This document shows, piece by piece, positions 40,395 through 62,841 of a DNA stretch of 64,000 nucleotides; the first letter of the stretch is position 1, and each line of letters starts with the position of its first letter. The notes under the pieces were generated by a model. The model did not search any database and was not told the origin of the DNA. It saw nothing but the letters and a program-made list of their open reading frames with translations. The translations under genes were made by a program, and so were the position numbers. Source of the DNA: Octopus sinensis (lineage: Eukaryota); NCBI RefSeq assembly GCF_006345805.1, contig NC_042998.1, positions 143,158,001-143,222,000 on the forward strand, written 5' to 3'.

Positions 40395-40915
40395 ACATGT
40401 CACTGGCACAGGTGCATTTACATGGCACTAGCACAAGTTCATTTTATACGTCACCAACACAAGTGCATTTTGAGTGGCACCAGTACAAGTTCATTTTATG
40501 TGACACTGGTACAAGTACATTTTACATAGCACCAGCACAAGTGCAGGTGCTGACAAGTGCATTTTACTGACACAAGTACATTTTACATAGCACCAGCACA
40601 AGTGCAGGTGTTGACAAGTGCATTTTACTGACACAAGTACATTTTACATAGCACCAGCACAAGTGCAGGTGCTGACAAGTGCATTTTACTGACACAAGTA
40701 CATTTTACATAGCACCAGCACAAGTGCAGGTGCTGACAAGTGCATTTTACTGACACAAGTGCATTTTACATAGCACCAGCACAAGTGCAGGTGCTGACAA
40801 GTGCATTTTACTGACACAAGTACATTTTACATAGCACCAGCACAAGTGCAGGTGTTGACAAGTGCATTTTACTGACACAAGTGCATTTTACGTGGCACCA
40901 GCTTGAATGCATTTT
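40395..40915. repeat. Minisatellite: ~5 diverged 25-26 bp units, then 6+ near-identical 61-bp units (starts 40511, 40572, 40633, 40694, 40755, 40816, 40877)
   Basis: Unit acaagtacattttacatagcaccagcacaagtgcaggtgctgacaagtgcattttactgac. Confidence 0.95.
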
Positions 40916-42727
40916 ACTATATATATATATTAGAGACAGAGAGTTAGGAAAATATTGATCTAAAACAGCTATCAGATGACGACGGAAGACAACTTGAAGT
41001 TAAATATGGTTAACCTATGATGATCAGCCACTTTGAGGGAAAAACAAAAATGATATGGAGTTCCAACAAGTTCAAAATTCTAGAAAACAAGGAAAGATTG
41101 AGCATAGTGTAAATTGCCAAGTCTAGGAGATGAGACACTGGAAGTAAAAGGAAAAGATGCAATGGAACAACTGAGGTTTAAGGAGTTGTATACAGCCAGA
41201 TTAAGATTTTGGAGTGGCTCTATTTCCATGGAACAAGTGAATGTATAACAGTTAATACTGTCATATTAACAGCATGGATGTGGATTTTTATCAATGTTTA
41301 ATCCTTTCATCTGAAATATTGATGCTACTGCTTACCTCTAGTTTAAATATTAAATTCATCTCCTCTTGGATAAGGCATCAAGCTTATGAGATGAGATGAT
41401 TGGGTGCAGCTGCTTGGATACTGACAATTTAGCACAGTTGACTGGACATTCGGCCTGCTTTAACAACAGTACTTTTTGGCACTGGAAGCAAATACACACG
41501 TACGTATGCACATGCAGAAATATATACATACAGATAAACAGAGAGGGACAGAGAGAGAGCAACAGAGAAACATTAAACTGTCTCATGTCATTTAAGTCAG
41601 TATTGAATCAGCAATGCCAAAACACTCTGCAATTAATATTCCCAGATGATTTGGTACTTGTTTCTGATGGACATGCAAACTATGACAATGTAGAATAAAG
41701 TGCTTTGCACATAAATTACAATAAAATACCTGCAGTGAATTTAAACTCACTTTTACCTGTAGTTGCATGTCATGTGGCTCAGATTAACATATGATGGTCA
41801 CTCCCATCAGTTTCGATGTATAAGTGTTTGAAGGACAGGTCTTAAAGAAAGGAAAAAAAAACACTAAGAAGCTGCATCTATTTGCAATGGATGCATGAAT
41901 GTAATTTTAGCCTGGGTATGGACTTTGCTGTGAAGTCGCAATGATGATTTTCATTTTGCCTGGGATTGGGCAAGTGTGTCTATTGGTGGTAGGATGTAGT
42001 TCTAACACCATACAGATCAATCTAAGTAATGACTTTCCCAAGATGTCAGATTAAGCTAACATACTGAATAATTACCTAATTTCAATGTGTTGAACCACCT
42101 CAAAGTCACCTTTATTTGTCTAACTGAGCAGTCAGACAAATAAAGGTTGACAAATTAAGCACTAGAGTGAAGTAAGTACTAATCAACTAAAAGCTTTTGA
42201 AGGTGGTGCCCCAGTAGGACCTCACTCCAATGACACAAACCAACAAAAGAATAGGTCTAGAATTTATGAAAACTAATGGAGTTTATTCTCAGTTCAAAAT
42301 TATAGGTATTACATTTTTTTATCTCATAGCACATTGTTTTTTACTTATTTTTAAAATCTCTTATCCCAGTTATTACCATCCATTTTTCCATATTCACATG
42401 GGTCTAGACACAGTTTGTTACGGCAAACTTTTATATGGCTGCATGCCATGTCACTAACCTACACCTCATTCCAAGCAAGGCAATATTTTCCCATGACAAG
42501 ATAATTTTTATCACAGAAGATTAGAAATGGACACCACTTGCATGACAGTGAGATTTGTTTACAACAACCATGTAAAACCAAGACAATACAAACACACACA
42601 CATTAATGACTTGTAGGCACAGGGTATTTCATTATCCAACCATAATATGCTATAAAGTATATTAAACGCTTTTATAAGGCAATAATGTGTACTACTGTGT
42701 TAGCAATGCATTTAAACTATGTGTTAA

Positions 42728-42856
42728 GGTCATCTCTACAGATTTTCTATAGAAATTATAGCCAGCACTGATTTTGTCAGCACTTGGATATGAAAGAAAC
42801 ATTGTAACAAAATCAGTGCTGGCTATAATTTCAATAGAAAACCTGTAGCGATGACC
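42728..42856. repeat. 129-bp inverted repeat (50-bp arms, 3 mismatches, 29-nt loop)
   Basis: ggtcatctctacagattttctatagaaattatagccagcactgattttgt ... acaaaatcagtgctggctataatttcaatagaaaacctgtagcgatgacc. Confidence 0.9.
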
Positions 42857-44024
42857 CACATACACATATATGAGACAGAGATAACAGGCTTCTTTCAAGG
42901 GCAAGATGGATAATGAATGTAATCAAAAGTAAAAACTGAAATGAAAACTGAACTCTAACCCAGGATATCAATTAGAGTCTTAGACCAATATTCTATCAAT
43001 GAATCAATACATGTCTAACCATTCTGTTACCATGTCTGCTGAAATACATTACTTTTGTTACTATTAATTTTGAAATTTATGAAGAATTAAGTAAAATAAC
43101 TTAGTCATTACTAAGCTACTGTTTGGAACAAAAATTAATATAAAATTTTATAGAATGTTTTAATTTAGATCACCTTAAACCTTTTATTAACATATTTCTG
43201 CTAAAGCATAAGGTTTTGTTTCAAATAAGCTGGTGTTTGGCAAATAAATTAACATGAAAGTTTGATGGGAGGTGTAAATTTACATCACTTTAAAAAAGTT
43301 TGTATTACGCAACCAGGTTGTTCACAGGTGATTTAGTATCAACAGAGTCAAGTCTATTATTCCAAGTCTTAGTTGCAGTTATCCAATCTGTGTTGATCAC
43401 CTTATTTTGCAAAGTAGACAGGACTCAAAACAAAGTTTTACTACACGTGACTGTAGGGATCAAAATTGATCATCATCATGATGGTTTAACATCCATACTT
43501 TTTCCATACTTGCACAGATCAGACAGAATTTGTTGAGGTAGATTTTATACAGCCAGTTACCTTTCCTGTTGCCAACCCTTATCTGTTTCCAAGCAAGATA
43601 ATATTTCCTTATGGCCAGATGAGTTTTTTTGTTTTTTTTCTGTAGAAGACTAGAAATAAACATCAGTTGCATACTCATTTAAAACCACACCACATCAAGA
43701 CAAGAGTAGACACACACATACATACTGACTTCTTTCAGCTTCTGTCACAAGGCTTTGGCTGGCCCAGGGCTATAGTAGAAGTCAGTTGCCCAAAGTGTCA
43801 TACACTGGGACTGGACTCTAGACCAAATGGTTTGAGAAGCGAGCATGTTAACACAGCCACACCTGCATTTATAAAATACAAAAACATTTGGCTAAAGTAT
43901 TAACCCTAATCCTCTTAGACAAATTCATACACTAAATAAAGTTAGTCCAACTAAGAATCATTCACAATATTCTTAAGATATAATGTAAACAAAAGAAAAC
44001 AACCCACCCTGGGTATATAAAATC

Positions 44025-44340
44025 TCTTGTCTTTTACTTGCTTCAACATTGAACTGCAGCCATGCTGAAGCACTGCCTTGAAAAGTTTAGTTGACAAAAT
44101 CAACCCCAGTACTTATCATTTTTAAGTCTGATACTTATTCTATCGATCTTTTTTAGTGAACTGCTAAGTTATGGAGATGTAAGCAAACCAACACCAGTTG
44201 TCAAGCAAGTGGTGGGGAATGGACAAACACACACACATGTGCACAAAATGAGCTTTCTCAGTTTCTGTCTACCAAATTCATCGCAGGCCCAAAGTGACAT
44301 GCAATGGGACTGAACCCAAGACCACATGATTGCAAAGCAA
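44025..44340 (-). mobile_element. SINE family A copy with internal deletion
   Basis: Reverse-complement tail and partial head. Confidence 0.8.
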
Positions 44341-44884
44341 CCCTGTTTTTGAAGAAAGGAAAGGGTGGAAGATGAAGTAAATAGAAGCAAAGACATATCA
44401 ACTGTCGCAGGTTAAATATGACAAGTTTTATAACTTAATCAACGAAGAGTTCCAAATAAACCCAGTATTTTTCCTGTTGGACATGTCAACAATATTATTC
44501 ACCATATCCACCCTCAACCCTACCCAAAGTTTACAGTCATTGCCCACCTCTCCTCCTTTCAACCATTCATTTCTCAATCTTTTCTTTTCTACTCTAGGCA
44601 CAAGGCCCGAAATTTTGGGGGAGGAGGCCAGTAGATTAGATCCCTTTCCAATTCCACCCAATCACTCCTACCCAATCTTCTAGAAATTGAGCAGTCTTAT
44701 AGCTTCTTTGCAATAGGAAACCTGTACGGCTCTGGCCTTTTGTCTCTCATACTTTAACCCTTCATTTCCTAGCATAAAGCCACCACCTCAGAGTTTCATG
44801 GTCTAGTAAACTGCATGATGACTTCACTAACGTTGGTGGCCTGAAAAAAGAACCAAGTATACACTGTAAAATGATTGGTGTTAA

Positions 44885-45458
44885 CCCTTCATGGGCAGGT
44901 GGGATTCCTTGAGGCCCCAGCAAATATTTTAAAGTTATGCAATTTTTACATTTTTTATTTAAATGATTTTATATGTATGCACATAAAATTTTTAAGTTAA
45001 AAATTTCCAGCCATATGGATGTTATGGCATAAAAATATGGTCATTGGACACCATTGGCCTTCTGTGAAATAATTTTTTCTTTCAGATATTCTGATTAACT
45101 ATAAGTCAATTTTCTTTGTATTTGTACTGGTATGAATCGATATACTAAATAATTTTTGTTTTATTTTATATTTAGTGCTATATGTATAGCTCATAAACCT
45201 ATAAAAGATGTTGATTTCTTTCAATAAAGGTTTTTTCAGTCAATAGATTATATTTTAATTCCCCTCCATTAAATTCTAATAATTACAAATATATACCTAT
45301 AAGGTGCCAAATTTGTTCTGTATCATGCACTCACACATATACAAGATTAAACAAATATTACTTTATGGATAGTACAGAAATGCACAAAAATAAAAGGGGG
45401 TCCCTCGAGGACCCCAATGGCCTTTTGTGTAATTCCAACCCCGCCGGCCCATGACAGG
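44885..45458. mobile_element. piggyBac-type non-autonomous element (574 bp) with TTAA TSD
   Basis: TTAA|CCCTTCATGGGCAGGTGGG ... CCCGCCGGCCCATGACAGG|TTAA; subterminal near-palindrome ggggtccctcgaggacccc; splits an RTE tail. Confidence 0.8.
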
Positions 45459-47283
45459 TTAATAACAGCCTCCAACTGTCAAAACAAAGCCAAAGCAGAG
45501 ACTGAGCACGATGCAGTCCTTGGGCCCATCCGATCGTATCAAACCATCCAACTCATGTCAGCATGGAACTAAGCATTAAATGATGATGATTTTTTTATCT
45601 TACAACAACTTTAATGAATTTGTTATTTCATACATAATTATGTTCAGTACCCATGCTGGCATGGCTTGGACAGGTCACTACAGCCAGAGTGAGCACATAT
45701 TCAGAAGTTACTGCACACACAGACAGTCAGAAGATTGCATTTCTGTGTGTTTCATACATTTGTAAGAATTACTGGAGTGGGTCTTTTACAGCAGGACATC
45801 ATCAAATACAGAATTAACAAATTCAAGCCCAGTATATTACTAGTATCCATTATGGCAATGCTGGGAGATGATAAACAAAGTGGGGCAATGAATTGTAAAG
45901 CATCTAACTAATTCAAACAGTTCTACTTTCCACAACACATTCAGGACCCAGTACTCTTCAATACAGAAATTATATGCAGAAGACAAGTGCATGGTCGAAC
46001 CAGTTTCAAGATAAAATACTAAATTAGAATAAAAACACTAGCCTTTTGAAAAGCTGCAATAGTGCCAGTGGAGTGGTCTTATATTTGTTTTTTTCTTTTG
46101 ACAAAAGCAAAACATAAAAAAAAAAATACGATTAGAAATCATAATGGAGAGAAACATTTATAGACAACAGTTGGCAAGTAGAGTAGAGGGAAGAATTAAA
46201 TTTACTTCATTCCATGCCAACATCAACACAAGTGGCCTGTCAAAAAAAAAAAAAAGAGAGACCATCTGGTAAAAAAAGGCCAACATATTTGGGATATTGG
46301 CCAACATAGCCAAGCAAAAGCTGTATGATGATTAATAATATAGTTGAGTAGTCTTGGTTAGCTCCACTCAAATATATGTCAATTTAATATAATACAGTTT
46401 GAGTGAAGGCATGTGGCCTAATGGTTAAGGTGTTGCACTTGCAATCATAAGATTGTGGTTTCCCTTCCCAGACTAAGCAGTGCATAGTGTTTTTTAACAA
46501 AACACTTCATTTCATGCTACTCTAGTCTAAATGAATTCCAGCAATAGCTGGAAAGTTAATCCTGTGACAGACTGACATCTCATTCCGGAGTGTTGTAGTC
46601 TCAGATCACTTATAAACCAGGGAAACTGGCCTTATTAGTCTTAGGGTATATGACAAAGTTAAGTAAGTCTAAGTCATTAATGGAACCAATTTACTCACCA
46701 CTCAAAACTATCTGATACCACTTTGTGCTTACAGATTATGTGATGATCTCTCTCTTCAAGTAGATTCATTCATACAAACTCAAATAAGTGATAACAAGTA
46801 CCTGTTAGGTATTTTTGCCAAAATGTCCAAATGGATGAACTAAAAAAAAAGCTGATGTGACACTGATAGCAGCTTATTATCATAGTTTTATGTACAGGGT
46901 AATCAAGTTTATTTATTTAGTCATTCCTAACAATTTTCTCATAAATTTCAATATTTGCTATTTTTGAACATTTTATATTTTTTCTTTCAATTTTGCTCTA
47001 TTGCCCCTAAATGTTCTTTATAATTTCCTATGCATGTACAAGGCTTTCATCAACATCATTTTAATGTCCACTTTTCTATACTGCTATGTGCAGGACAGAA
47101 TTCATCGAAGAAGATTTTCTACAACCAAATGCTCTTCTTGTCCTTCACCCTCACCAGTATCCAAGCAAGATAACATTTTCTTATGGCCAGACAAGATTTC
47201 ATTGAAAATGATGCTCACCACTTGTAATGACAATGACACGTGTTTGCAACTTTCATGCTAAGAAAATAAGCCACATACATACA

Positions 47284-47289
<6 letters not shown>

Positions 47290-47328
<39 letters not shown>

Positions 47329-48973
47329 GGCAATTTCTGTCTGTCTGATACTATCTTGCTGCCTACACCAATGAACCATTCTTCTAGAAACTTTGCATAC
47401 ATGTTAAACTAACACCCAGTTGAATTATAAGGCTAGTTGGATTTCAATAAAAATTTATAATGGGCCCCATAGATGGGGGCTGCAGCACATGTTTACAAAT
47501 CAATAACACATCAACTGATATGAATTAAGTAAGACTTCTGTAAGGCTCAAGCATATAAAAAAGCGTGTGACCTTTGTGAGAACAACTCAAGTTTCCAACG
47601 GAAAACAATTCTGCATGCAGCACCTGTATGTCACATTAAGGACACGGTCAGCTGCAAGATTCATGGATAGAACATGGAACAATGTAATGACCAATGACCT
47701 GGAAGTTGGCTCACCATGAGATTATTTGATGAATTGAATCCAAATCACCATAACATCTTAATCATTTTTATCAAGCAACACGAGATATAGCCATACTATG
47801 GTAAGCTACAGCACGCTACAATGCCAGCTACAATATGTGGATTTTCTTACAAGAAGTTTTCTGTAAAAGGTACATCCCATATCACCTGCCCCAAGTCATC
47901 CACTCCATGTCAACCATCCCATATCATCCACTTCAAATCAACCATCCCATGTCCTACAACTCCCAAGTTTCCCATCCAATATTACCCACATAAGTATGAC
48001 TGAAATGAACAAATGTTTAAGCAGTAAAGAATTTCAGTAATCTTGGTTTTTATTATCCTATTGTATAGCCTACAAGTTTTGTTTCAAATTATCCCAAATT
48101 ACCCACATAAGCATGACCAAAATGAACAAATTTTTAAACTTATATGTTTAAGTGATTACTTACAAGTAAAATTATTTATTTTTTTTATTTCATCAGGAGA
48201 CAGCAACAGAGAGAGAAGCTTGCCTAACTGCAGATAAAGCAGCCCATGAAAGAGTAAGGCAAGCAGAAACAGCAAGAGAGACAGAAGCTCACCTTAATGC
48301 AGATAGAGAGTCACACCGATGCACAAGAGAAGCTGAAGACGCAACACCTAACTGATTCTAAAATTTACATATTGACATAAATCGAATCAAGTCAAACCAA
48401 ATCAAAATAGATGAACATCAATGGAATTTGTATCCTTGTGGTACCAGTGCCGGTGGCACATAAGAAAACCATCCGAACGGGACCGTAGCCAGTACCGCAT
48501 CGACTGGCCTCCGTGCTGTGGGCACGTAACAAACACCGTCCGAGCGTGGCCGTCTGCCAGCCTCGTCTGGCACCTGTGTCGGTGGCACATAAAAACACCA
48601 TCCGAGCGTGGCCGTCTGCCAGCCTCGTCTGGCACCTGTGTCGGTGGCACATAAAAACACCATCCGAGCGTGGCTGTTCGCCAGCCTCGTCTGGCACCTG
48701 TGTCGGTGGCACATAAAATAACCCACTACACTCTCGGAGTGGTTGGCGTTAGGAAGGGCATCCAGCTGTAGAAACACTGCCAGATCTGACTGGCCTGGAG
48801 CAGCCTTCGGGCTCCCCAGACCCCAGTTGAACCGTCTAACCCATGCTAGCATGGAAAGCGGACGTTAAACGATGATGATGATGATGATGATGACATAGGA
48901 TTAGGGAGAGGAACTAAAATGGGAACTGGAAATAATCTCTACTTCTCCAGGTATTACAGGGTAATTCAGCTAG
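47290..48973 (+). mobile_element. Helitron-like remnant, interrupted by an RTE insertion at 48380-48890
   Basis: 5' (TA)n-aaatggcaatttctgtctgtctg start; 23-aa STPR-type repeats at 48197-48355; 3' end ccaggtattacagggtaattcagCTAG|t (decayed hairpin + CTAG). Confidence 0.6.
48380..48890 (+). mobile_element. Young 5'-truncated RTE 3' UTR copy with three 62-bp internal repeats and (GAT)n tail
   Basis: CpG-rich; TSD-like TGACATA at 48373-48379 and 48891-48897. Confidence 0.85.
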
Positions 48974-48993
48974 TGTGTGTGTGTATGTGTATA

Positions 48994-50192
48994 TCATCAT
49001 CATCATCATCATTTAACGTCCGCTTTCCATGCTAGCATGGGTTGGACGGTTCAACTGGGGTCTGGGGAGCCCGAAAGCTGCACCAGTCCAGTCAGATCTG
49101 GCAGTGTTTCTACAGCTGGATGCCCTTCCTAACGCCAACCACTCCGAGAGTGTAGTGGGTGATTTTATGTGCCACCGACACAGGTGCCAGACGAGGCTGG
49201 CAGACGGCCACGCTCGGATGGTGTTTTTTATGTGCCACCGACACAGGTGCCAGACAAGGCTGGCAGACGGCCACGCTCGGATGGTGTTTTTATGTGCCAC
49301 CGACACAGGTGCCAGAGGAGGCTGGCAGACGGCCACGCTCAGATGGTGTTTTTATGTGCCACCGACACAGGTGCCAGATGAGGCTGGCAAACGGCCACGA
49401 TCGGATGGTGCTTGTTACGTGCCCACAGCACGGAGGCCAGTCGATGCGGTACTGGCTACGGCCACGTTCGGATGGTTTTCTTATGTGCCACGTGCCACCG
49501 GCACTGGTACCACAAAGATACAAATTCCATTGATGTTCATCTATTTTGATTTGTTTTGATTTGATTTTCACTTGCCTCAACAGGTCTTTACAAGTGTCAC
49601 AAGAAGGAAGGTATGCACAGGTGGACTGACTACGTCCCAGGTAGGGGCCATGGGTTATGGCCTGACTAGTCTTGCCGGGTCTTCGGATGGTGTTTTTATG
49701 TGCCACCGACACAGGTGCTAGATGAGGCTGGCGAACGGCCACGATCGGATGGTGTTTGTCATGTGCCCACCGCACTGACTGATACTATCTATCTGATGGA
49801 TTTCTTGTGTGCCACAGGCACTGGTACCACAAGATACAAATTCCATTGATGTTCATCTATTTTGTCTATTTTGATTTGATTTGATTTTCACTTGCCTCAA
49901 CCGGTCTTCACAAGTGTCACAAGAAGGAAGGTATGCACAGGTGGACTGACTAGTCTTGCCGGGTCTTCGGAAGGTGTTTTTATGTGCCACCGACACAGGT
50001 GCCAGATGAGGCTGGCGAACGGCCATGATCGGATGGTGTTTGTTACGTGCCCACAGCACGGAGGCCGGTCGATGCGGAACTGGCTACGGCCACGTTCGGA
50101 TGGTTCTCTTGTGTGCCACCGGCACTGGTACCACAAAGATACATATTCCATTGATGTTCATCTATTTTGATTTGTTTTGATTTGATTTTCAC
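48994..50192 (-). mobile_element. Young RTE 3' UTR copy with four ~62-bp repeats and ~310-bp higher-order duplications
   Basis: (CAT)n at 48994-49011; reverse complement of 48380-48890; block repeated at ~49570-49890 and ~49890-50190. Confidence 0.85.
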
Positions 50193-50299
50193 ATATATAT
50201 AACGGGAAGCTTTATGAAAATAGACAAAAGACGAAGGCAGGTGGAAAACAAACGAACAATTGTATTAGTATGGCGCTCAGGAAATATAAATAAAACAAG

Positions 50300-50337
50300 T
50301 CTTTAACGTTTCGAGCCTACGCTCTTCAACAGAAAGA
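50300..50337 (-). ncRNA. Minimal type I hammerhead ribozyme motif (A6U core variant), helices intact
   Basis: TCTTT-CTGTTGA-A-GAGC-gtag-GCTC-GAAAC-GTT^AAAGA: 5-bp helix I, 4-bp helix II, palindromic AACGTT helix III. Confidence 0.65.
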
Positions 50338-50756
50338 TACACAGAGAGAAAAAAAACACAGAAAGAAGGAGAGAAAAAAAATGCGTGCAGTAGCTAACGA
50401 ATCAACATGGCGATCTGATTTCGGCCAGAGGTCAAAGATCAAACATGAGACGCGAGAGCGAAATAAGGGGAGATAATAGGGTTGATAATAGGGTTGAAGG
50501 ACCAGCTAATAATGTGTAGGAGGGCTCTGGACGTGTGTATGTATAGGGTTGGTGTATGTATTAGTATGTATAAGGGTGTGTGTGTGTATGAGAGAGTATT
50601 AGTGCGTAGGATTGGTCTGGACGTGCGTATGTATGGGGTTGGTGTATATATATATATATATATATATAGTTCAAATTTACAGAAAACAAAAGCCAAAGAT
50701 GGGTGAAGGAACAACAAGCAGGTTTATTAGTTTAACACTTATGAAAAATGGAAAAG

Positions 50757-50795
50757 TCTTTGATGTTTTGAGCCTACGCTCTTCAACAGAAAAGA
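50757..50795 (-). ncRNA. Second copy of the same hammerhead motif, decayed
   Basis: TCTTTT-CTGTTGA-A-GAGC-gtag-GCTC-AAAAC-ATC^AAAGA; two G>A changes at CpG sites. Confidence 0.5.
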
Positions 50796-53789
50796 TTGAG
50801 GAAAAAAGCAGAGAGAGAACAAAAAATGTGTAGGGATTAACAGTTCAACATGATGAAATTGCTGAACAAAAAACAGGCTTCTTTCAGTTTCTGTCAATTA
50901 AATCCACCCACAAGACACTTGTCTATGACGTTATGCAGTGGGACTGAACCTGAAACCATGAAATTGGGAAGCAAACTTTTTAATCACACAACCATGCTTA
51001 CAACTTTCAATTAAAAAAAACAATCTAATTGGAACATCTAGTCTTCATACATTTTCCAATGACATTAGTAATGTAAGCAAAGAAAATGGTCAAACTCAGA
51101 ACCAAATTTTGGACTTGGCTCAAAGTACAGGGGTGGCTATATGGTTAAGAAACCACATGGTTACAGGTTCAGTCCCACTGTGTGACACTTTGAGCAAGTG
51201 TCTTCCATTGAAACTTTCTGAGTGGATTTAGTAATCAAAAACTGATGAAACACCTGATGAATAGTATATGTATACACCTATATATGACTAATTTCAGTTA
51301 AATTGCTGTAGTTTATAACATTACTTTGATTCACGCAACATTGCATCATTAAAAGTTATTCATAATTAGATCACTAGTAAATTAAACAGAGCATCACAAC
51401 ATTTCAAAGATGGTTCAAGAACATCTAAATACTACTTTTAGCTCATCAAGTTCTGTGTTCTCACACACACACACACAAACACATGATGACAGATTTTCTT
51501 TTCATGAACGACAAGTGAGGGTTCAGTAAAATGAAGCATTAATCATGTTCTATGGACACAAAGGTGTCTCTTGACACCTGCTGATGCCTTGTAAACCTTT
51601 TGGCAAATGAAACGAGTTAAGGATTCAGTTTGTTTTAGTGCTTGTGGATTATTTACTATGTGTTTTATTAAGTGGGTGGCAGGCCTGCTTTACTTCATGC
51701 CACAAAACCACAATGACAGGGAAGGTTTCCATTTAGAGGAGCAGTGTTTTGCCTGTGTGCCTTCATGATTGCACACAAAATTGGTCCTGATGTTGGAGTC
51801 AACTTTACTCTAATCTTTGAACTGAGAAGCAGGACTGACACCAGGTTCTGTGTTCTGATGCTCTGTTTTTCCAGGGAACGTTGTATTGCTTCAGATTGTC
51901 TGTGGCAACATGTCCTGTAACTGCCTTACCATCCATCAAAATCACAATGGCTGAGTACACAATAGAGCATGAATGTTATCTTTTCTGTTTTTAGCAATAA
52001 ATCCAGATTATTTGACCCAATTACAGCTAAATATAGTCTTTTGTTTCAGTATTTCTTTGAAGGTTTTAAAATGAAACAAAACAAAATAAGTATCAGCCAC
52101 TCCCCTCTGTGACCCTGGGCAGATTTTTTTTTTTCATGTATGTCAACATGACTTCCACACTGCAAGATAACAGTGAGTTGCTAGCAAAAAAAAAAAATAC
52201 ATGCCATCATGCTTTAAATTGTTAAAAACTGTATCTGCCTTATTTTGATTGACAAATCATTAACCCTTTAGCATTCAGATTGTTGTCAAATGTACTGTTT
52301 GTTTATTTACATTCTTTTGAATTAATCATGCATTATCTTGTAGCCTTAAGATTTCAATGATGTGATTGTTTGCTTTTAGTATGACATTGTAGGGTAGGTA
52401 TAAGAGACTGGATTTGGCCAGTTAGAGCATTAAACAAAGAATATTTTAGCCAGATATGGCCAGTTTAAATTCTAGTATCAAATAAAATGCATTGTGCTAT
52501 TTAGTTATAGAACCTTTACATTCTGAGTTCAAATCCCACCATGGTCAACTTTGCATTTCATCTTTCCAAAGCCAATAAAATAAAGTACCAGGCATATATT
52601 GGGATCAATATAATCTACTGTAACTCTCCCATAAAATCTATGGCCTTGTGCCTATGTTAGACATAATTACTTGGCAAAGTCATTAAAATACATGCAAAAT
52701 GCCTTGCGGTATTTAGTTAGACCTTTATATGTTCAGGGCTTAAATTTCCCTAAAGTCAACTTTGCTTTTCATCCTTCCAGGGTCAATAAAATATCAAATT
52801 TTTGGCTTGATAATAAAAGATTTGACCCCTTCCCAATTTAGAGTCTTGTACCTATGTGTGGGAGGGACCAATTGCTATAAATCATAATAGTTACCAAACT
52901 ATACAACTCAATTACTTCAAGTCAACAATGTAGACCCCACGTAGTTGTCCAGTCTGCTAGAAATACCAGCCAAATCTCTTTCAAGTAATCTGAAAAAGTC
53001 CTACACACCCCCAAACAGATGAAATGTTCATAGTGAGAATGCTTTTGATCATAGGTCCCTGAGGACTAATGAAAAACACATTATCATGTTATTACAATTA
53101 ATACTTGCTTACGTTTGGAAGTTTCAAAGTTTTGAGGAGTGTGGAACTGCTTCTTAGTCACTATTGTTCCCAGATCTGATCCAGAATAGTTGTACCTATC
53201 AGGGTCCTAGCTATAGGTCAATTAGCATGCTGCAGAATTGCCTCTGGAAGGTCATTCACAGACACCCTAACAGGCCCAGAGCAAATGGAGCCCTTCAGCT
53301 CCTTAACTATTCATCTATGAGAAAGTAACTCCATACAAATCAGTAAATTAACCCATGGGATAATCCACTGGCATTTAAAAGAGCCTAAGGGAATAACTCC
53401 TTGTAAAAAAAAACAGAAGGAAAGACCTCAAGTCAGATATATACAGTTATACCTAAACAATACCTAGCATTTCCTGTGACTTCCATGGATACTGCAAATG
53501 CATTGACTTGTAGTGTATCCATGAGTGGAAAGGCAGTAAATGTACATAAGGTTAAGCACTTGCTTCTGGAAACAGCCCAGGTACAGTAGAGTTGGTGAAA
53601 TTACTGTTTCTACAATACCTCTGACAACATTGAAAAAGGTCAACCATGTTTGTTAAGCTTTCTTCCCTCAGAATTGTAGGGATGGCCTGTAAGACAGTTC
53701 ATACAATTACTTAAAAATAGTCATACAGTCACATGTATTTTATTTTTACATAGATTTAATCTAATTTTTAGGTAATTTTAGGATTCCTA

Positions 53790-54152
53790 TTTATCTTTTA
53801 TCTTTTGCATGTTTTAGTCATTGGAGTGTGGCCAGGCTGGAGCACCATCTTGACAGCAGTATTTATTTTCTAGTCTGATATTTATTCTATAGACCTTTTT
53901 TTATTTTTTTTTTTTGCCAAACTGACATAAAATAACCAACACTGAATATCAATCAAACAGTGGTGGGAGACAGACACACATATACATGTGTGTGTGTATA
54001 TACACACACACACAACAAGTTTCCATACATCTACCAAGTTCACTCACAGGGCATCAGTCAGCCTGGTGCTATATCAAGACATTTGCTCAAGGTGCCATGC
54101 CATGGAACAGAACCTAAAACTACTTGGTTGCAAAGCAAGCTTCTTACCACAC
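53790..54152 (-). mobile_element. SINE family A diverged copy
   Basis: Reverse-complement tail and head blocks. Confidence 0.75.
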
Positions 54153-54487
54153 TTCCATTTCATAAATAATAACAAAAAACAATGGTCAAAAATATAAATG
54201 ATGCATAGTTTTAGTTAAAAATCATTGTTTATCTGGATACTTGTATTCTTAGTCATGAACATATTCAAACAGTAAGTTAATTTTGTCATTAGCCTAAGGA
54301 TTAAACAGATTTAGACAATGAGCCCCTAAAAATAGACATACATAAGTGCCTGAAAAATAAAGAGATTTCCAGGCCAAAATAACAGTTTCTAAGCAACCAA
54401 TCATATGTAACATTTATTATTATTCTCTGAGTAGTATAAAGGATAGTTAAGAGCAGAACAATTTACAATAATTTTATCCCTTAGTTA

Positions 54488-55978
54488 GATGTGGCTGTAT
54501 GGTGAAAAGCTTGCTTCTCAACCACATGGTACAGGTTCAGTCCCACTGAGTGGCACCTTGGACAAAAGTCTTCTACTATAGCCTTGGGCCAACCAAAATT
54601 TTGAGTGGATTTGGTAGAGGTAGACAGAAACTGAAAGACTGTTTTTTATATATATATATAAATATATATATATAGAGAGAGAGACAGAGTGATACCTCAT
54701 AGCACAAGTTATCCCATTATCTTCTCAAATACAGGTGTCTGAGACGCAAATCCTTTGAAGTCTCTTTGGGATATGCAGTCAGGCCACAGTTTCCTCCATG
54801 CAGAATTCAGCATTCTCCTTATTACACCCTACCAGGCTATATTGATGATTTTCAGGCAGTTTACAATGTTGTAGTGCTCCTTCCAAAACTAACAACAAGT
54901 TAGATTTGTATTTTCAGTGACTTCAAAGCACCAATGAAACAGGTGTTTGGTGTACAATTTCTTAAAATTAGAAATCACCTGTTGGTCCATGCATGGGCTG
55001 CAAGATAGGGTTGGTGTTGGGTGAAAGGTACAGAACTTTTATGAATTTAAAATTTCATCTTCAAGGTTAGGAGGGTGAGGAGAAGCGTTGACAAGGATGA
55101 GGAAGATCTTGAGGGTTCTGCTTCAGGAGATCCCCATACAGTACTTGTGCTTCCTCGCAGATGATAGTCTCCATAACCATATCCCCTGCAAGTTGCTTCT
55201 CGTTGATCCACAGAAGCAATTTTTCCATCCTTTTGTGGACATGTGTGCATTGCTTAGAGAGCCTGGAGACACCCTCTGTTATTGTAACAGCCTCGATTTT
55301 GTCCTTCTTCAGGATGGTGCAGATTGTCGACATGCATCGTTCACAACACACACTCCTCTCTCATGTTTATCAATGATTTCCTTCTTCAATTCTATCGTAA
55401 TCAGCTTTTACTTCTTCTCAGCACGGTCCTTTGCACTAACCTTCTTAGGACCCATGGCTAATACAACTAATCATTATAAAATGATAGCAAAAAATGCACA
55501 AAACTAAACAAAAACACTGGGAAAAAAACAACAGGGATACTACAACGAGATAAACATGTTAACTGAGCGGAGACTTCGCTTGTTGGGAGAGCGTATGAGC
55601 TTAGCACCAACTAGCAGTCACTTGTATGAAACTTGTTTGTACTGCGGATTTCCACTCGTACTTCAAGACAAAAATTCACACGAGCCTCAACACATACAGC
55701 AAGTTATCTGTACAATGGTGTACTCGTACTGCAACATTCTACTGTATATATGTGTGTGTGTGTGTGTCTTTGTGTTGTTCTCCCATCACCACCTGACAAC
55801 CAGTGTTAGCGTGTTTACGTCTCTGTAACTTAGCAATTCAGCAAAAGAACCGGCAGAATAAGTACCAGGCTTCAAAACAAAAAAATAAGTACTGAGATCA
55901 ATTCATTCAACTAAAAAATTCTTCAAGGCGGTGCTTCCAGCATGGCCACAGTCTACTGACTGAAACAAGTAAGAGATA
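54488..55978 (+). mobile_element. SINE family A split in its microsatellite (head ~54488-54640, tail ~55747-55978) by a Tigger element
   Basis: Head and tail are colinear with intact copies once 54680-55744 is removed. Confidence 0.75.
54680..55744 (-). mobile_element. Tigger/pogo (TIGD1-like) DNA transposon, internally deleted pseudo-transposase (ATG at 55455)
   Basis: MGPKKVSAK..KLITIELKKEII (CENP-B N), MEKLLLWINEKQLAGD (HTH), LYLSPNTNPILQPM-DQQVISNFKKLY (DDE_1, 4-bp CATG duplication), LNSAWRKLWPD; terminus TA|CAGTAGAA. Confidence 0.92.
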
Positions 55979-56592
55979 ATGATAGTACTCATGCTGCCAA
56001 AGACTGACTGTTGCCACTCCAAAATTATTAGGAGTACCAATAATAATACTCTTTTCATACTGAAAATGGTCTTCAAAAACAAAAATAAAATTATTTTGCA
56101 AGCTTAACCCTTTTGTTACCATATTTCTGTGTTTGTTTCAATTAATTTTGAAAATAATGAAGAATTTGGTAAAATAATTTTGTCAGTATTCTGTTGGTGA
56201 TTGGAACATAAGTATGAGATTTTGATAGAAGATTCTAATTTAGATCATTTTAAAATGTTAAGTTTATATGAGAGATCCAAGGCTGGTGGGGGGGGGGGTC
56301 AGGCAGGTTGATATCAAGACAGTTAAATGAAAAAATATGTTGCACTAAATAGTTAAATGGTTTGATATCAAGTTTTATGACAGATATAGTTCTATGTTCA
56401 AATTCTGCCTGGATCAAGTCTTTTTTTCATCACTTGGGGATTAATAAAGTATCGATATTGAATGCATTCTTTCTACAAATTGTCAATCAACTCAGTATAA
56501 ATCTTCCAAATAGTGAGAACATTACAATAGCAGACAGTGTGTTGCAATCCTCAACAAAAGAAGTGTTAAACTGAAATTCTAAGATTTTAATA

Positions 56593-56948
56593 TAGGTGCA
56601 GGCATACCAATGTGTTAAGTTTACTTCCCATGCACATGATTCTAGGTTCAGTCCCACAGCGCAGAACCTTCTACTATAGTTTCGGACTGACCAAAGCTAT
56701 GAGTGGATTTGGTAGACAGAAACTGAAAGAAGCCCATCATGTGTGTGTGTGTCTGAGTCAGTGTTAGTCCCTCACAACCACTTGACAACCAATGTTGGTG
56801 TGTCTGCATCCCCGTAACTTAGTGGTTTGGCAAGAGACTGAATAAGTACCATGCTTAAAAAAAAATTTGTGGCCAATTCATTCAACAAAAATTTTCATGG
56901 CAGTGCCCCAGTATGGCTGCAGTTGAATGACTGAAACAAGTAAAAGAT
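56593..56948 (+). mobile_element. SINE family A full-length copy
   Basis: Head, (TG)n, tail gactgaaacaagtaaaaga. Confidence 0.85.
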
Positions 56949-58134
56949 AATTAAGAAATATTTTTTTAAGTATTTTACCAGAGAAAAAAATTCTTATCAC
57001 TACAAACTTCAGCTTAGCCATAAAGGGAATCTTAAACAAACTGTCTACCTTATTACAAAGCTAAAAGAATAGTGTTATGGTTCATATATTTTTCATGTGT
57101 GTTTCTATGGTACTTCATATACATCACCATCTAACCCATAACCCATGCTAGCATAGGTTAGATGGCAATGTATTTATAGTTGGATGCCCTTCCTGCTGCC
57201 AACCCTAACTGATTCTTCAAGTAAGGAAATTCTTTTAATTCACAGGTTTTTGAAAGCACTGAGTAAGAGGATGTCAAAGCTGACAATGGAGCTCAACAGC
57301 CTTGAGTCTGCCAGATCCTGTCAAACCAGCCAACCCATGCCAGCAAGAATGGAAAGTGGATGTTAAATGATGAGGATGATGAGATATGTGTGTGTGTGTG
57401 TGTGTATGCACTTGCACACATATGAACGTGCAAATATGCATGAATGTTGATATTTTGCTAAATCACCGTTTGAGCAATGTGGTGCTCTTGTTGACATTGT
57501 AACACCTGTAACTCTGCACTTTCAAAGACCTCTAGTATATAAAAATCCTGTACCTGAAAAACAGACAAAGGTTTGTGACAGGAAGAGCATCCAGTCGTAA
57601 AATCCATTCTCAAAATCAATTCCTGTCCAAACTACGCTAGCATGGAAAAAACAAATGTTAAACAATTTGAATATATTTTACAGAAAGAAAAAAGAAATGA
57701 CACCAACATATCTTCATTGCTGGTTCAACACTTATTTCTTTCCTATAAGTGAGACATGTGTAGGCTAAGTATTTTATTTGGCATAGTTCTTGCAGCAGAT
57801 TATGTTCTTCAACTGCATTAATATTATAGTGTATTCATAGAACCACTTCTGAATTTCAAAGTTCTCTTGAACTTGTTATATGTCAAGTTATTATTATTTA
57901 GCAATATCTAACAATAAAGGTACAGAAATAGCTGGGTGGTTAAGAAATATGCTTCTCAACTACATGAATTCAGGTTCAGTCCTACTGAATGGCATCTAGG
58001 GCAAACATTCAGCTGCTATAGCCCTGGGCCAACCAAAATCTTGAGTGAATTTGGTATAGAGAAACTAAAAGAAACCCATTGTGTGTGCATGGATGGATGG
58101 ATAGACAGATAGATATTGCTATCCATTCATCATC

Positions 58135-58350
58135 TCTGCCCACTATTCTTGGTAAGATCATGGAACAGAGTCCTCAAGCACCTCCTCCTTAGGGACCTAT
58201 CAGAAACAACCATCATTAGACTTTCTGGCTTGATCCCAAGCATGACCAACTGAGACTATGGATATTATCCAACAATCTCATTTTTAGCCTATCCTTAGGT
58301 CTCCTGTTGCTTGGCTCAGGTTGAAGAATCCATCTTGCTACTCTTTCCTG
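58135..58350 (-). mobile_element. RTE/Expander(Rex3)-like LINE C-terminal fragment
   Basis: Minus strand ARWILQPEPSNRRPKDRLKMRLLDNIHSLSWSCLG resembles RPRGRPRTRW.D.I..L.W..LGI. Confidence 0.6.
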
Positions 58351-59351
58351 CAACATAATATGTATATACACATACACACGTGTGTGTGTGTGTGTTTACA
58401 TTTGTACTCTATAAAAGTTACTTGTGATGAGCAGTTGTGTGGATCCTGCCTTCAATGATGTGGGAAATAAGAGACACACCCCCTTACTTGAAAAACAGTT
58501 AAGGATTAGCCACAGAAAGAGCATCCAGCTACACAGACATTGGAGTACATTGCAGTCCTCAGATACACTGGATCCTGTCAAACCACCATGCCAGCAGAGA
58601 AGATAAATGTTTTGAATAAGGGGAAAAAATCCAAAGTGTAAAAGTGAACTCTCCAGGTGGTTGTAGTAGTGAACTACTAGCTGATAAACAAGTTTTAATC
58701 TACTGGTAATGTTTTTGTGTCTTGTGAGTAAGTACATTTAATTCTCCACAGTTCATTTAGTTGATAGTAATCAATACTTTTCATCTGGTAATGTTATGGT
58801 TTCTCATCCAAGGAGGTTTATTTCTCATCTGTTTAAGCCCCAGAATAATAAAAGCTAAAGCACTGGCTCTCAGAAGCACCTTACGAATTTCATAACTTGA
58901 ACTACACCCTGACACCTCAACACCATCTTTTTCCAGTCAGGATAGCTATGCATCTACAACAAAACACCTGTTCCTCTACCATATGTTAACCTCCCTCAAT
59001 ACTACTACTCAGTTGAGAGCTCTTGCAAATTACTTGGTATCTTACAAGTGCCAACACCACAAAGAAAGCACCCCAGTACACTCTGTAGAATGAGTGACAT
59101 TAGGAAAAGACATTCAGCTGCAGAAACCATACCAAAGTAGACACTGGAGCTTGGTACAGTCCCCTGATTCATTGGTTTCCAAACAATCCAAATCATGCCA
59201 CCATGGAAAACAGATGTTAAACAATGATGATATGCCATACATAGTAAATAGGTTGAGGTATACTATTAGATTTTAGTCAAAATCTCAATCAACAAAATGA
59301 AATAAGAAATAAAAATGAGATGAAAGTTGATTATCTGTCATGTAAATATTA

Positions 59352-60470
59352 ATAATGGGGCTGTTCTAAAAGTAATGCAAAAGTGGGCATAACTTTATCA
59401 TTAATTGATAAAGTTCATTCTAATTGCAGATAGAGGAAGAGTAACTCTTCTTGTTTTTCATTGCAGACAATGGATTTCAAGCAGAAACAACATGCCATCA
59501 TTCTGTTCTTGATGAAAGAAGAGTGCAGGCTAACATCCAGACAGCTATAAGTTGTTTACAGAAATGACACCATTGACAAAAGCAGTCTGCACAGCTGGAT
59601 GAGGAAGTTTGAAGTAGAAACTGACATTGAAGACAAACCATACAGTGAGAGACCATCAACTGCAACCACTAACAGGAATCACTAGTAAGGAGACAAAATA
59701 ATTCACACAGTCAAGCAAGTCAAAATGCATTATATAAGATGATGGAAGACTTTGGATATCAGAAAGTGTATGCAAATTAGGTACCTCAGGAGAGGAAGGG
59801 GGAATTCTGTTCTGATCTGCTGTAAGCATTTGAAGTAAATGAAGACATGCATTTTTTTTTTCCAATTTGGTGACAAGGAATGAAATGTAGGTGTATCTTT
59901 AAGGCCTGGAAATAAAGGCTGGCCTATGAAATAGTGTCACACCTCATTTCCATGGTGTAAGAAGTTTGGGAGACAGCAACTGGTGCAAAAGTCATGGTGA
60001 CTGTTTGTAGAGATGACAAGGGGATCCTTTTCCTTAATTGTATGTAATGTGATTGTATTCTGAGCAGTGAGTAGCACATTCAGACACTCACAAAGTCATT
60101 AAGAGGAAGAGACCCAAGAATCTGAAAACAATCCGCATTCACTATGACAATGAGAAACTACACGTTAGGCAACAAACCAAGCAACTAATTAGTAGTCTCC
60201 TATCCACTCCACTGTACAGCCCAGATCTGGTACCCTCCAACTTCCATCTGTTCAGTACAATGAAGAATAGTCTTCATGGACCATGATCTGATGACAAAGA
60301 TGAGTGAAAATGATTGTGAAGAAGTAGGTACAACAGGTTGCATCTAAATTTTTTTGAAGATTTGAGTTTGAATCAACAATGTTGCAAATGCATCTCTTAT
60401 GGAGATTACGTCAAGTAGAACTTTTTAGAGGAAAAACTACTCTTAACATACTTTCAGTAGAATCCTCTTA
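59352..60470 (+). mobile_element. Near full-length decayed mariner element
   Basis: MDFKQKQHAIILFL..IEDKPYSERPST; LGYQKVYAN*VP; LVTRNEM*V; HYDNEKLH; LYSPDLVPSNFHLF; degenerate TIR-like ends. Confidence 0.85.
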
Positions 60471-62304
60471 ATTGAATAAAAATAAATTAAGTGAATGAGG
60501 AGTCCAGAAAAAAACTAGTATAAAAATTCCATTAAAAAAAGGTATGGAAAAAAAGGTATGGCAAACTCCACAAGCTACAGGAAACCTTATCTAAGATGGC
60601 ACTATCTCTGAACAAAACCTATACAGGATAATGGGGGTCCTTTAGTCATGACCTACTTTTAGGTCAGAAAAGGAACTTCAGGGAAGGCAGGGTTGGGTAT
60701 AGTGATAAGTATAGTGCCTGAAGGGACTGAATAGAAAATAGATGACAAGGAGGAAGAAAGATGTAAGAGGTGGGAGGACTTTTATGAAGGTGACACAAGA
60801 CCAGCTAATTCTGGGGAGCAGAGTCCATTGCTGTAGCACACTAAAATGCACTCAATCAACACCATAAAGTAGCTGGTGATAGGAATGATATTCATTGTAC
60901 ATGACATGCAAAAACAATGTATGTACTACAACATCAAAGGTTGGTAACTTTCTCTGTTGCTGTGTCTCTCAAATGACAAAGGAACAAAACAAATGAGATG
61001 TACTACCCATATCAGCATAGAAAAACATCTAAAATGAAGATGGTAAATAGTTACAAGAGCAAATGACAAAGCTGAAATATACAGAACTGTTTATAAAAGG
61101 GTTTTCAAAAGAATCTAACAAGATTAGAATAAAAATTCAGTTTAGCAATGTATCAAATGGATGCAGGATTGCATGTCTCCTAAGACTACATGATTAAGAA
61201 GTCTGCTTCCTAACCATGTGGTTAAGTTTCTTCTAAAGCCAGGGTTGACTAAAACCTTGAGAACAAATTTTGTAGAGAGAAACCAAGAAGCCCATCATGT
61301 TCATATGTGTGAGTGTGTGAATGTCTACATTTGTGTCTCCTTGTCTCATCATCACATGATAGTTCTAAATAAGTGTCCCTGTCATACAGACAGTGTCTTT
61401 CATTAATAATATTCTGTAAAAACATGTCTGGTCATGTGGAAATATTAACTTGCTTGAAAACAAGCAAGGCTTTGGCAATGGAGAGTACCTGGTCATAGAC
61501 AATCTGCCTTAATAAACCCCATGTATATTAATATGATGACTAGTGGCATGTAAAAGAACACCCATTACTCTTGGAGTGGTTGGCATTAGGAAGGGCATCC
61601 AGCCATAGGAACCATGCCAAATCAGATTGGAACCTGGTGTAGCCCTAAAGTTTACCAATTTCAGACAAACTGTCTAACCTATGCCAACATGGAAAGCAGA
61701 CACTAAATGAAGATGATGATGATAGAAAAACACCAACATTAAAATACTAGCATTTGTAATGCTAGTCACAAAAACTTTACACTTAAAAGTAAAGTAATAA
61801 TTCTAAAATGTGGATTCTTAGTTGAAGTATAAAAAGACATAGAAAGAGAACTTGTGGGGTTAATGTTTATTTAAAGCTACATACAATGGAAAATACTGAG
61901 GAATGGGATTTTGTTTTACAAAGGGACTGCAGGCAGATTTAGTAGAGAAGGCAATGAAATTAATGAGTGCACCTGTAGAGCAGGAATAGCCTTGGGTGAG
62001 CTGACAGACAATTAACACTGTTAAACATGATGTAAGATAAATTATGCAGTCAAAACCACCTGCAAAATACAATCTGTAACCTGCAAATTTGAGTCACTCA
62101 AAATCCTCACTAGGATAGTCACAATAAGACATACTTTTATCAGACCCAACACATTAACATTAGAAGTTACAATGTTATTGCTGTAGTTGTTGTTTAGCTA
62201 TTGCTCAGTTGTGATTGAACAGTCATATAAAACAATGGTAATTAAGCTGGATGCTGTTGTGTATAATTTTAGGTATTTTGTAAAATTTTATAAACAGCTG
62301 TTGA

Positions 62305-62796
62305 TGTGGGTATGGTAGTGTGGTTAGGAAACTTGCTTCTCAACTATATGGTTTCAGCTTCAGTTCTATTGCATGGAATCCTGTGCAAGTGTGTAAACTA
62401 CAATAGCTCCAGGCTGAACGAAGTCTTGTGAGTGGATTTGGTAGATGGAAACTAAAAGAAACCAGTCATGTAAGTGTATGTGTGAGTGCGTATATATATG
62501 TGTGTGTGTGCAATGATAAGTGACCAAGACCTTTGGCGATATGCTGTGCTTGAGTAGACCCATCAAGCCAAGTGAAATCATAGTCGTGGCCGATGCTGGT
62601 GCTACATAATCAGCACCTGCGCCGGTGGCACCATAAATAGCACTCATTACACTCTTGGAGCGGTTGGCATTAGGAAAGGCATCCAGCCATAGAAACCATG
62701 CCAAATCAGATTGGAACCTGGGGCACACCTCCAGCTTACCAGTTTCAGTCAAACCGTCTAACCCATGCTAGTATGGAAAACAAATGCTAAATGATG

Positions 62797-62798
<2 letters not shown>
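62305..62798 (+). mobile_element. SINE family A head followed by RTE 3' end (SDQDLWRYAVLE...AK*, 3' UTR, GAT tail)
   Basis: gtgaccaagacctttggcgatatgctgtgcttgag...ccaagtga, then ggttggcattaggaaaggcatccagc. Confidence 0.75.

Positions 62799-62841
<43 letters not shown>

What the first reader, a model, noticed from the sequence alone, without database searches (positions are those of the whole stretch)
50200..50853. Tandem Penelope-type minimal hammerhead ribozymes with a non-standard CUGUUGA core, in the sense strand of the MAU2 intron
Seen: on the minus (MAU2-transcribed) strand, 50337-50300 reads UCUUU-CUGUUGA-A-GAGC-GUAG-GCUC-GAAAC-GUU^AAAGA, with perfect helix I and II and the self-complementary AACGUU in place of helix III. 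A homolog lies 457 nt away (50795-50757) with CpG-type G>A decay. Both share A6>U, so it looks like a family trait rather than a random mutation. Known: Penelope-like elements and metazoan non-LTR retrozymes carry minimal type I hammerheads with a palindromic helix III that can work as dimers and can yield circular RNA. Inference: a cephalopod PLE/retrozyme family with a variant catalytic core that could cleave the MAU2 pre-mRNA intron or release a ~457-nt monomer.
Basis: partly seen in the sequence, partly recalled or inferred. Interest (0 to 1): 0.75.

Follow-up and report, generated by a model that had tools for sequence, protein, structure and literature searches.

The report
Penelope retrotransposon hammerhead with A6U core
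The motif is the cut-off tail of a very abundant Penelope-type jumping gene, not a small tandem retrozyme, and the whole family carries a hammerhead-shaped RNA with one normally fixed core letter changed, so it likely cuts itself only slowly or with help, which has not been tested.

Summary
The motif is real (50337-50300, minus strand, MAU2 intron, sense). It is the minimal type I hammerhead at the 3' end of a Neptune-type Penelope-like element (unit about 4.56 kb, RT plus GIY-YIG). The window holds a young 459-nt 5'-truncated copy lying against the (TA)n tail of an older, decayed copy of another subfamily. There is no 457-nt monomer and no retrozyme. U6 is a family trait: 13,499 exact copies have U6, 143 have A6 and 341 have C6 or G6. 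Related elements elsewhere have A6 in 17 of 18 motifs and U6 in none, so U6 is derived. Across six subfamilies up to 33% apart, only N7, H17 and the outer helix I base differ, which is the pattern of a hammerhead under selection. Against strong cleavage: core changes lower activity in published assays, copies typically end 90-110 nt past the cut site, and 27 of 27 mapped long copies read through the upstream hammerhead. Most likely a slow, dimer- or protein-assisted ribozyme; cleavage is untested. An effect on MAU2 is unlikely. The scan noted other Penelope core variants on other DNA, none under the A6U words searched.

The parts
50193..50651 (-). Young 5'-truncated copy (459 nt) of the 3' end of a Neptune-type Penelope-like element; ends in CTTCCCG plus a short TA run
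   Evidence: 85-97% identical to 13 genomic copies over this span, common 3' end at 50193; longer copies continue into an RT/GIY-YIG ORF
50300..50337 (-). Minimal type I hammerhead motif: helix I 5 bp, core CUGUUGA-A, helix II 4 bp with GUAG loop, GAAAC-GU-U; predicted cut 50305/50304
50329..50329 (-). U at core position 6 (canonically A), fixed in the family
   Evidence: T 13,499, A 143, C or G 341 exact genomic copies
50507..50662 (-). Two partial copies of a 90-nt repeat of the element's 3' untranslated part
   Evidence: D7; present in longer copies
50645..50668 (.). (TA)12 array: tail of the older remnant and likely target of the young copy
   Evidence: copies of the family end in TA runs
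50669..50860 (-). Older, decayed 3' end of another subfamily of the same element (consensus core CUGUCGA, GUC site)
   Evidence: 81-87% to its nearest genomic relatives, 70% to the young copy; subfamily consensus
50757..50794 (-). Decayed hammerhead of the older remnant (G12>A, G16.2>A), predicted dead
26620..64000 (-). Host context: large intron (about 44 kb) of MAU2, between the exon beyond the window and the candidate exon near 26560
   Evidence: the 26560 exon was recognised from recalled MAU2 sequence and has no Pfam hit; small exons in between were not excluded

Best explanation
The two motifs are 3' end pieces of a Neptune-type Penelope-like retrotransposon whose minimal hammerhead has U instead of A at core position 6 throughout the family, and this hammerhead likely still cuts, but only slowly and probably as a dimer or with help from the element's protein. 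Shown: identity of the element, family-wide U6, its derived state, the conservation pattern, and that inserted copies carry the cut site intact. Inferred: the element RNA is a head-to-tail, more-than-unit template (unit about 4.56 kb); reverse transcription starts about 100 nt past the hammerhead at the UUAUAUAU of the unit junction, primed in a genomic (TA)n run, and usually stops early, leaving short 3' pieces such as these; the young copy went into the TA tail of the older one. Inferred: U6 weakens the uridine turn, so most template molecules stay uncut while cutting remains useful enough in the source elements to keep the fold. The copies in the MAU2 intron are likely passengers.
For: Element: a 485-codon open frame with RVT_1 (E 3.4e-6) and GIY-YIG (E 3e-4), both just under Pfam's cut-offs, upstream of the motif in L046; 775 homologues at E<=1e-20; linker CSRPRCRTC with a Neptune-length spacer; hammerheads 4,563 nt apart in one full copy. 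U6; also 22 of 24 relatives of the older copy. Derived: 17 A, 1 G, 0 U among plus-strand motifs with helix I of 3 bp or more in 80 related loci; this genome's U6 proteins form one clade, bootstrap 100. Selection on the fold: six subfamilies 4-33% apart differ at 3 of 38 motif columns (N7, H17, outer helix I base) against 35 of 96 downstream columns, Fisher p 6e-4; flank-selected subset 4 of 38 against 32 of 96, p 0.009. N7 takes all four bases; H17 is A, U or C in every subfamily consensus. Across 25 chosen representatives 181 of 200 helix cells pair, shuffle mean 122. A Penelope hammerhead in the anole cuts only with protein and is not needed for insertion in vitro (PMC11167929, passages). 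Weak excess of 5' junctions at the cut site, 19 against 9 at a control TA.
Against: No cleavage assay exists. Single changes in the CUGA turn gave low activity in a mutational scan (PMC9901934, passages) and a natural A6C variant cleaves at under 0.1 per minute (PMC3088659, passages). U6 allows a closed rod (U4-G16.2, G5-C15.2, U6-A15.1) that hides ACGU: predicted P 0.98 alone and 0.78 with 40 nt of context for the window copy, but 0.00-0.08 in context for six other U6 copies and 0.56 for one. Helix II and its loop do not vary among the six subfamilies, so they give no covariation; L065 has only 2 bp of helix I and the A6 sister family has a mismatch in helix II. 27 of 27 mapped long copies read through the upstream hammerhead and none ends at the cut site. 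The junction excess was counted by eye with windows of unequal width, p 0.04 uncorrected, and concerns a few dozen copies among thousands. About half of the 120 copies in the conservation test were picked by the motif itself.
Confidence: 0.58

Rival explanations
1. U6 killed catalysis; the motif is kept only as an RNA structure (for example the closed rod) that the element's protein binds near the start of reverse transcription.
For: Mutational data on the CUGA turn; closed rod predicted in the youngest subfamily; inserted copies carry the site uncut; hammerhead mutants still insert in vitro for the anole element; loop II GUAG is fixed although it varies in A6 families.
Against: The positions that vary among subfamilies are those free in a hammerhead (N7, H17), with no G17 consensus; the rod is not predicted in context for most subfamilies.
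Confidence: 0.27
2. The U6 hammerhead works efficiently in the cell: it cuts unit-length RNA out of a tandem transcript, the ends are joined, and the 4.56-kb circle is the template.
For: Long copies run 292 to more than 1,040 nt past the upstream cut site with scattered ends, and share one unit junction (24 of 27 show it in the slice examined); a circle would carry one intact, re-joined site. The model was proposed for Penelope elements in PMC4209133 (parts 1-2).
Against: An uncut tandem transcript gives the same copies. Only 1 of 29 long copies ends in the roughly 750 nt before the zone where most end, which a constant stopping rate on a circle does not predict. No RNA evidence was obtained.
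Confidence: 0.12
3. One reading: a retrozyme-like pair that releases a 457-nt monomer or cuts the MAU2 pre-mRNA.
For: Two motifs, same strand, sense to MAU2.
Against: The copies belong to different subfamilies, 70% alike; the upstream one lacks G12 and ACGU; the sequence between them is the element's 3' untranslated part; no array of the unit is seen; strands are equally used genome-wide.
Confidence: 0.03

Closest known systems
Minimal type I hammerheads of metazoan Penelope-like elements (Cervera and De la Pena 2014, PMC4209133; read parts 1-2 of 4 and supplement file 2 part 2 of 3)
   Same: Short helix I, extra base between 9 and 10.1, G10.1-C11.1, no helix III with palindromic ACGU, H17, U-rich flanks, place in the terminal repeat, thousands of single copies
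   Different: U6. Their consensus is CUGANGAH; the listed motifs seen all have A6 and the only core variant named in the text read is U3-A8
Neptune clade of endonuclease-positive Penelope-like elements (Craig et al. 2021, PMC8557442; passages, Introduction, supplement part 54)
   Same: RT followed by C-terminal GIY-YIG, Cys-rich linker with a long spacer as in Neptune1_Nv, variable pseudo-LTR, 5' truncation, insertion in (TA)n
   Different: Hammerhead core; no tree with named Neptune references was built
PAc Poseidon element of Anolis (Frangieh et al. 2024, PMC11167929; passages)
   Same: Copies come from RNA not cut at the hammerhead; reverse transcription starts inside a tandem template past the hammerhead
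   Different: Canonical core there; PAc starts at a site not homologous to the target, whereas here the junction UUAUAUAU matches the (TA)n target (inferred)
Natural hammerhead core variants (Perreault et al. 2011, PMC3088659; passages)
   Same: A position-6 variant exists in nature (A6C, phage Bcep176, under 0.1 per minute)
   Different: A single phage sequence, not a change fixed in more than 13,000 copies; C rather than U
Non-LTR retrozymes (PMC7229834, passages; bioRxiv 10.64898/2026.07.22.740005, parts 1-2 of 5)
   Same: Type I hammerhead motifs in the same orientation a few hundred bases apart
   Different: Retrozymes are non-coding tandem repeats with a complete hammerhead in each unit; this is the end of a protein-coding element and the two copies are not units of one repeat

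Membership tests
Minimal type I hammerhead of Penelope-like elements | Core CUGANGA with A6 | tested here: not met
   U6 in 13,499 copies, A6 in 143; hence filed as a variant, not a plain member
Minimal type I hammerhead of Penelope-like elements | Other core bases C3 U4 G5 G8 A9, extra base, G12 A13 A14 A15.1 U16.1 H17 | tested here: met
   Invariant in six subfamily consensuses except H17, which is A, U or C
Minimal type I hammerhead of Penelope-like elements | Helix I and helix II with G10.1-C11.1, supported by covariation | tested here: met
   Between families 181 of 200 cells pair, with U-A, C-G and A-U at the first helix I pair (representatives were chosen and are related, so not a probability); no covariation among the six main subfamilies
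Minimal type I hammerhead of Penelope-like elements | No helix III; palindrome at 15.1-16.1 for dimer formation | tested here: met
   ACGU in all subfamily consensuses
Minimal type I hammerhead of Penelope-like elements | Self-cleavage as dimer or with protein | not testable with these tools
   Needs a bench assay; the genomic junction excess is weak
EN+ Penelope-like element, Neptune clade | Single ORF with RT and C-terminal GIY-YIG | tested here: met
   L046:5821-7275; a whole unbroken ORF was not looked for
EN+ Penelope-like element, Neptune clade | CX2-5CxxC linker with long spacer before the two cysteines of the endonuclease | tested here: met
   CSRPRCRTC then about 23 residues, as in Neptune1_Nv and unlike the short Nematis spacer (compared by eye)
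EN+ Penelope-like element, Neptune clade | Pseudo-LTR holding the hammerhead; (TA)n targets | tested here: met
   28 of 29 long copies have an upstream hammerhead; 45 of 57 motifs are followed by a TA run 90-109 nt past the cut site
EN+ Penelope-like element, Neptune clade | RT phylogeny with named Neptune references | not tested
   The tree holds only unnamed loci
Non-LTR retrozyme | Non-coding tandem repeat with a complete hammerhead in at least two consecutive units | tested here: not met
   Two different subfamilies, one dead, sequence derived from a coding element

The most novel reading that the evidence does not exclude
A hammerhead whose uridine turn reads CUGU, a change expected to cripple it, works in cells in an abundant Penelope lineage, probably propped up by the element's own protein, and cuts out a 4.56-kb unit that is circularised and copied more than once around; standard CUGANGA searches miss more than 13,000 such ribozymes in this one genome.
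Probability: 0.17. Interest if true: 0.78.

Novelty: new variant of a known kind. Interest (0 to 1): 0.45.

Why it matters
What the hammerhead does in Penelope-like elements is open: it is kept almost everywhere, cuts poorly in vitro and was dispensable for insertion in the one reconstituted system. This lineage is a natural experiment. A core change expected to slow cleavage became fixed, the element went on to make at least six subfamilies and more than 13,000 copies, and the rest of the fold stayed under hammerhead-like constraint. Natural A6 copies of the same subfamilies and an A6 sister family lie in the same genome, so U6 and A6 can be compared with unaltered sequences. If U6 cleaves, the core consensus and the search descriptors need widening; if not, the motif has a non-catalytic role. 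The locus itself is ordinary.

Tried and rejected
Rfam scan of 48000-53000: no hammerhead match at E<=5. Other U6 families with different helix II (36 matches, 6 in the control): dropped as evidence, because L066/L072/L073/L084/L089 are a chance CTGTTGAA inside a longer A6 motif and L079/L082/L090 look like single mutants of A6 families; most others are decayed copies of the main family. A pseudoknot between loop II GUAG and an upstream CUAC as compensation for U6: not above shuffles (p 0.13-0.29 where present) and no covariation in 45 motifs; rejected. AACGUU as the working palindrome: rejected, since most copies have A17. Tandem pairs L020/L021, L060 and L290/L291 as retrozyme dimers: in L021 and L060 flanking non-element DNA is duplicated too, so these are local duplications or assembly repeats; L290/L291 is a 284-nt A6 pair and was not resolved. 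An ORF for the A6 sister family: the ORF in L313 belongs to a neighbouring U6 copy; none found in 20 loci, so the sister family is not on the protein tree. RNA: no RNA holder listed on record; four runs guessed to be RNA, contigs only, showed no pile-up of ends and cannot show one. Lunse et al. 2017 (RNA Biol, small hammerhead variants of Penelope-like elements) is not held; only its title was seen.

Full report
OBSERVATION. The minus strand at 50337-50300 reads TCTTT CTGTTGA A GAGC GTAG GCTC GAAAC GTT AAAGA, with a 5-bp helix I, a 4-bp helix II and a predicted cut between 50305 and 50304. A second copy lies 457 nt upstream on that strand, with G12 and G16.2 changed to A. Both lie in the sense strand of a large MAU2 intron: the first exon is 6.8 kb beyond the window and 3 of 7 candidate exons further down hit the same Pfam family. 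Rfam finds no hammerhead here.

WHAT THE SEQUENCE IS. A 28-mer of the motif occurs 4,401 times in the 2.72-Gb genome, the reversed control 0 times. Copies share a 3' end about 100 nt past the cut site followed by TA repeats (45 of 57 motifs at 90-109 nt) and have scattered 5' ends. [quoted passage not shown] The linker CSRPRCRTC and its long spacer match the Neptune rows, not the Nematis rows, of the alignment in the supplement of PMC8557442 (by eye). Of 29 long copies found with the element's 5' part, 28 carry a second hammerhead upstream; in one full copy the two are 4,563 nt apart. This is a Neptune-type Penelope-like element with a pseudo-LTR.

THE TWO WINDOW COPIES. The young copy spans 50651-50193 and is 85-97% identical to 13 genomic copies over that span. 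Its 5' end abuts a (TA)12 run at 50668-50645, which is the tail of an older remnant (about 50860-50669) that is 81-87% like its own relatives and 70% like the young copy. The relatives of the old copy show its subfamily had an intact G12 and a GUC site; 11 of 24 have the same CpG loss at G12, though they were picked by likeness to the decayed query. The 457-nt spacing is therefore the length of a truncated insertion beside a preferred target. It is not a repeat unit, and retrozyme membership (tandem units, each with a complete hammerhead; bioRxiv 10.64898/2026.07.22.740005, parts 1-2 of 5) fails.

U6 IS FIXED AND DERIVED. With the rest of a 26-mer held exact, position 6 is T in 13,499 copies, A in 143, and C or G in 341; counts are lower bounds. 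The ten A6 copies examined have flanks of several subfamilies, as scattered mutations would. In 80 related loci from metagenomes, the plus-strand motifs with at least 3 bp of helix I had A6 in 17, G6 in 1 and U6 in 0 of 18, some loci being near duplicates; many of the 80 loci end before the 3' end and gave no motif. Their architecture is nearly the same (for example CTGATGA A GGGC TAAC GCTC GAAAC GTC). On a tree of the endonuclease region the four proteins from this genome form one clade with bootstrap 100; L307 was left out for lack of coverage and the state of L067 is unknown. The same genome holds 579 A6 motifs with another second base in helix II (control 4), among them a sister-like family with helix I GTTT/AAAC that also ends in TA runs.

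THE FOLD IS UNDER HAMMERHEAD-LIKE CONSTRAINT. In 83 copies picked by a downstream 20-mer, 63 retained the motif and 20 were truncated or deleted there; among the 63, N7 was T 33, G 11, A 11, C 8 and position 17 was A 41, T 21, C 1, G 0, while position 6 was T in 59. Clustering 120 copies by their flanks gave six subfamilies of 12-29 copies (2 singletons set aside), 4-33% apart downstream; their consensuses differ at 3 of 38 motif columns (N7, H17, outer helix I base) and at 35 of 96 downstream columns (Fisher p 6e-4). The 65 copies not selected by the motif gave 4 of 38 against 32 of 96 (p 0.009). CpG sites were restored in the consensuses, and a first, tighter clustering left 68 copies unassigned and showed 6 variable columns, three of them CpG decay. 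N7 and H17 are the positions that the hammerhead consensus leaves free (PMC3088659, passages). Between families 181 of 200 helix cells pair against a shuffle mean of 122 (25 chosen representatives); within the six subfamilies the helices are invariant and give no covariation.

EVIDENCE AGAINST FAST CLEAVAGE. In a mutational scan all single changes in the CUGA turn gave low activity (PMC9901934, passages), and the natural A6C variant cleaves at under 0.1 per minute. From my own knowledge, the third base of a uridine turn is a purine whose N7 takes a hydrogen bond that U cannot. U6 also allows a closed rod in which UGU pairs with ACG; it is predicted for the window copy (P 0.98 alone, 0.78 in context) but mostly not in context for other subfamilies, and several A6 motifs have competing folds of their own. 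All 27 long copies that could be mapped read through the upstream hammerhead by 292 to more than 1,040 nt and none ends at the cut site; a few of these ends are alignment ends rather than true ends. Among short copies joined to TA repeats, 8 of 44 loci (first 100 of 299 rows) and 11 of 26 loci start at or beside the cut site, against 4 and 5 at the other TA dinucleotide; p is 0.04, counted by eye, uncorrected, with unequal windows. At most this is a faint trace of cleavage in a very small share of copies.

MECHANISM. Shown: element identity, fixed and derived U6, the conservation pattern, and intact cut sites in inserted DNA. Long copies share one unit junction, CTTCCCG TTATATATT ATGCGCTC, whose TA stretch is where genomic copies end. 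Inferred: the template is longer than one unit, priming occurs in genomic (TA)n at that stretch, and synthesis usually stops early. Inferred: the hammerhead is slow and needs a second copy or the element's protein, as reported for the anole element, whose hammerhead cut only with protein and was not needed for insertion in vitro (PMC11167929, passages), and in line with the low dimer activity in PMC4209133. For MAU2, the only partner in cis has lost G12 and the palindrome, so cleavage of the intron is unlikely.

NOVELTY. Minimal hammerheads in Penelope-like elements are known, and a Neptune element with them is listed in the supplement of PMC4209133. I found no U6 variant in print: searches were made; the one hit for 'hammerhead' with 'A6U' is a twister paper seen only in the listing; the motifs in the part of Figure S3 that I read all have A6 (supplement file 1 could not be searched). 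Lunse et al. 2017, the paper most likely to list such variants, is not held, Repbase and Dfam were not available, and bioRxiv supplements are closed, so the claim is provisional. Other papers seen as passages only: PMC7229834, PMC6155905, PMC6962438; PMC10085705 reference list only. The scan's notes describe other Penelope core variants, including G3-C8 in this genome and weakened cores in other genomes; look-ups by this sequence and by A6U words returned nothing. Verdict: new variant of a known kind; ordinary locus, informative family; interest 0.45.

Noticed in passing
window 48385-50187: Nest of direct and inverted copies of another repeat with 62-nt subunits; inverted arms up to 273 nt at 94%. 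One copy directly follows the 3' TA run of the young Penelope piece.
   Followed up: no
window 50880-51010 and 51151-51205: Pieces of a SINE-like repeat with more than ten relatives in the window; the older Penelope remnant begins at the end of one of them.
   Followed up: no
L287-L295, L300-L303, L310-L330: A sister-like family with canonical A6 (GTTT CTGACGA A GNGC TCC GCTC GAAAC GTT AAAC), same TA-ended layout, whose second helix II pair is often mismatched (C, T or G opposite T); no ORF found in 20 loci.
   Followed up: partly
L332-L360: Long copies almost never end in the roughly 750 nt from the element's 5' part to 290 nt upstream of the hammerhead (1 of 29), then 23 of 27 end within the next 750 nt; unexplained.
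   Followed up: partly
G000:C2:131812503, C5:60782251, C20:28641281: Short copies whose 5' junction repeats the first ten or so bases after the cut site (AAAGACTTGTT AAAGAC), as from a template jump.
   Followed up: no
L197:1982: A related element from a metagenome contig has G at core position 6 (CTGGGGA); its nearest relative L237 has A6.
   Followed up: partly
L066, L072, L073, L084, L089: Another repeat family with an upstream CTGATGA core and an apparently long helix II region of about 45 nt.
   Followed up: no
L020/L021, L060: Tandem duplicates of 632 and 662 nt that include flanking DNA between TA arrays; local duplication or assembly repeat.
   Followed up: partly
window 19224-18907 and 55360-55070, minus strand: Open frames resembling mariner- and pogo-type transposase fragments in MAU2 introns (resemblance recalled, not tested).
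   Followed up: no
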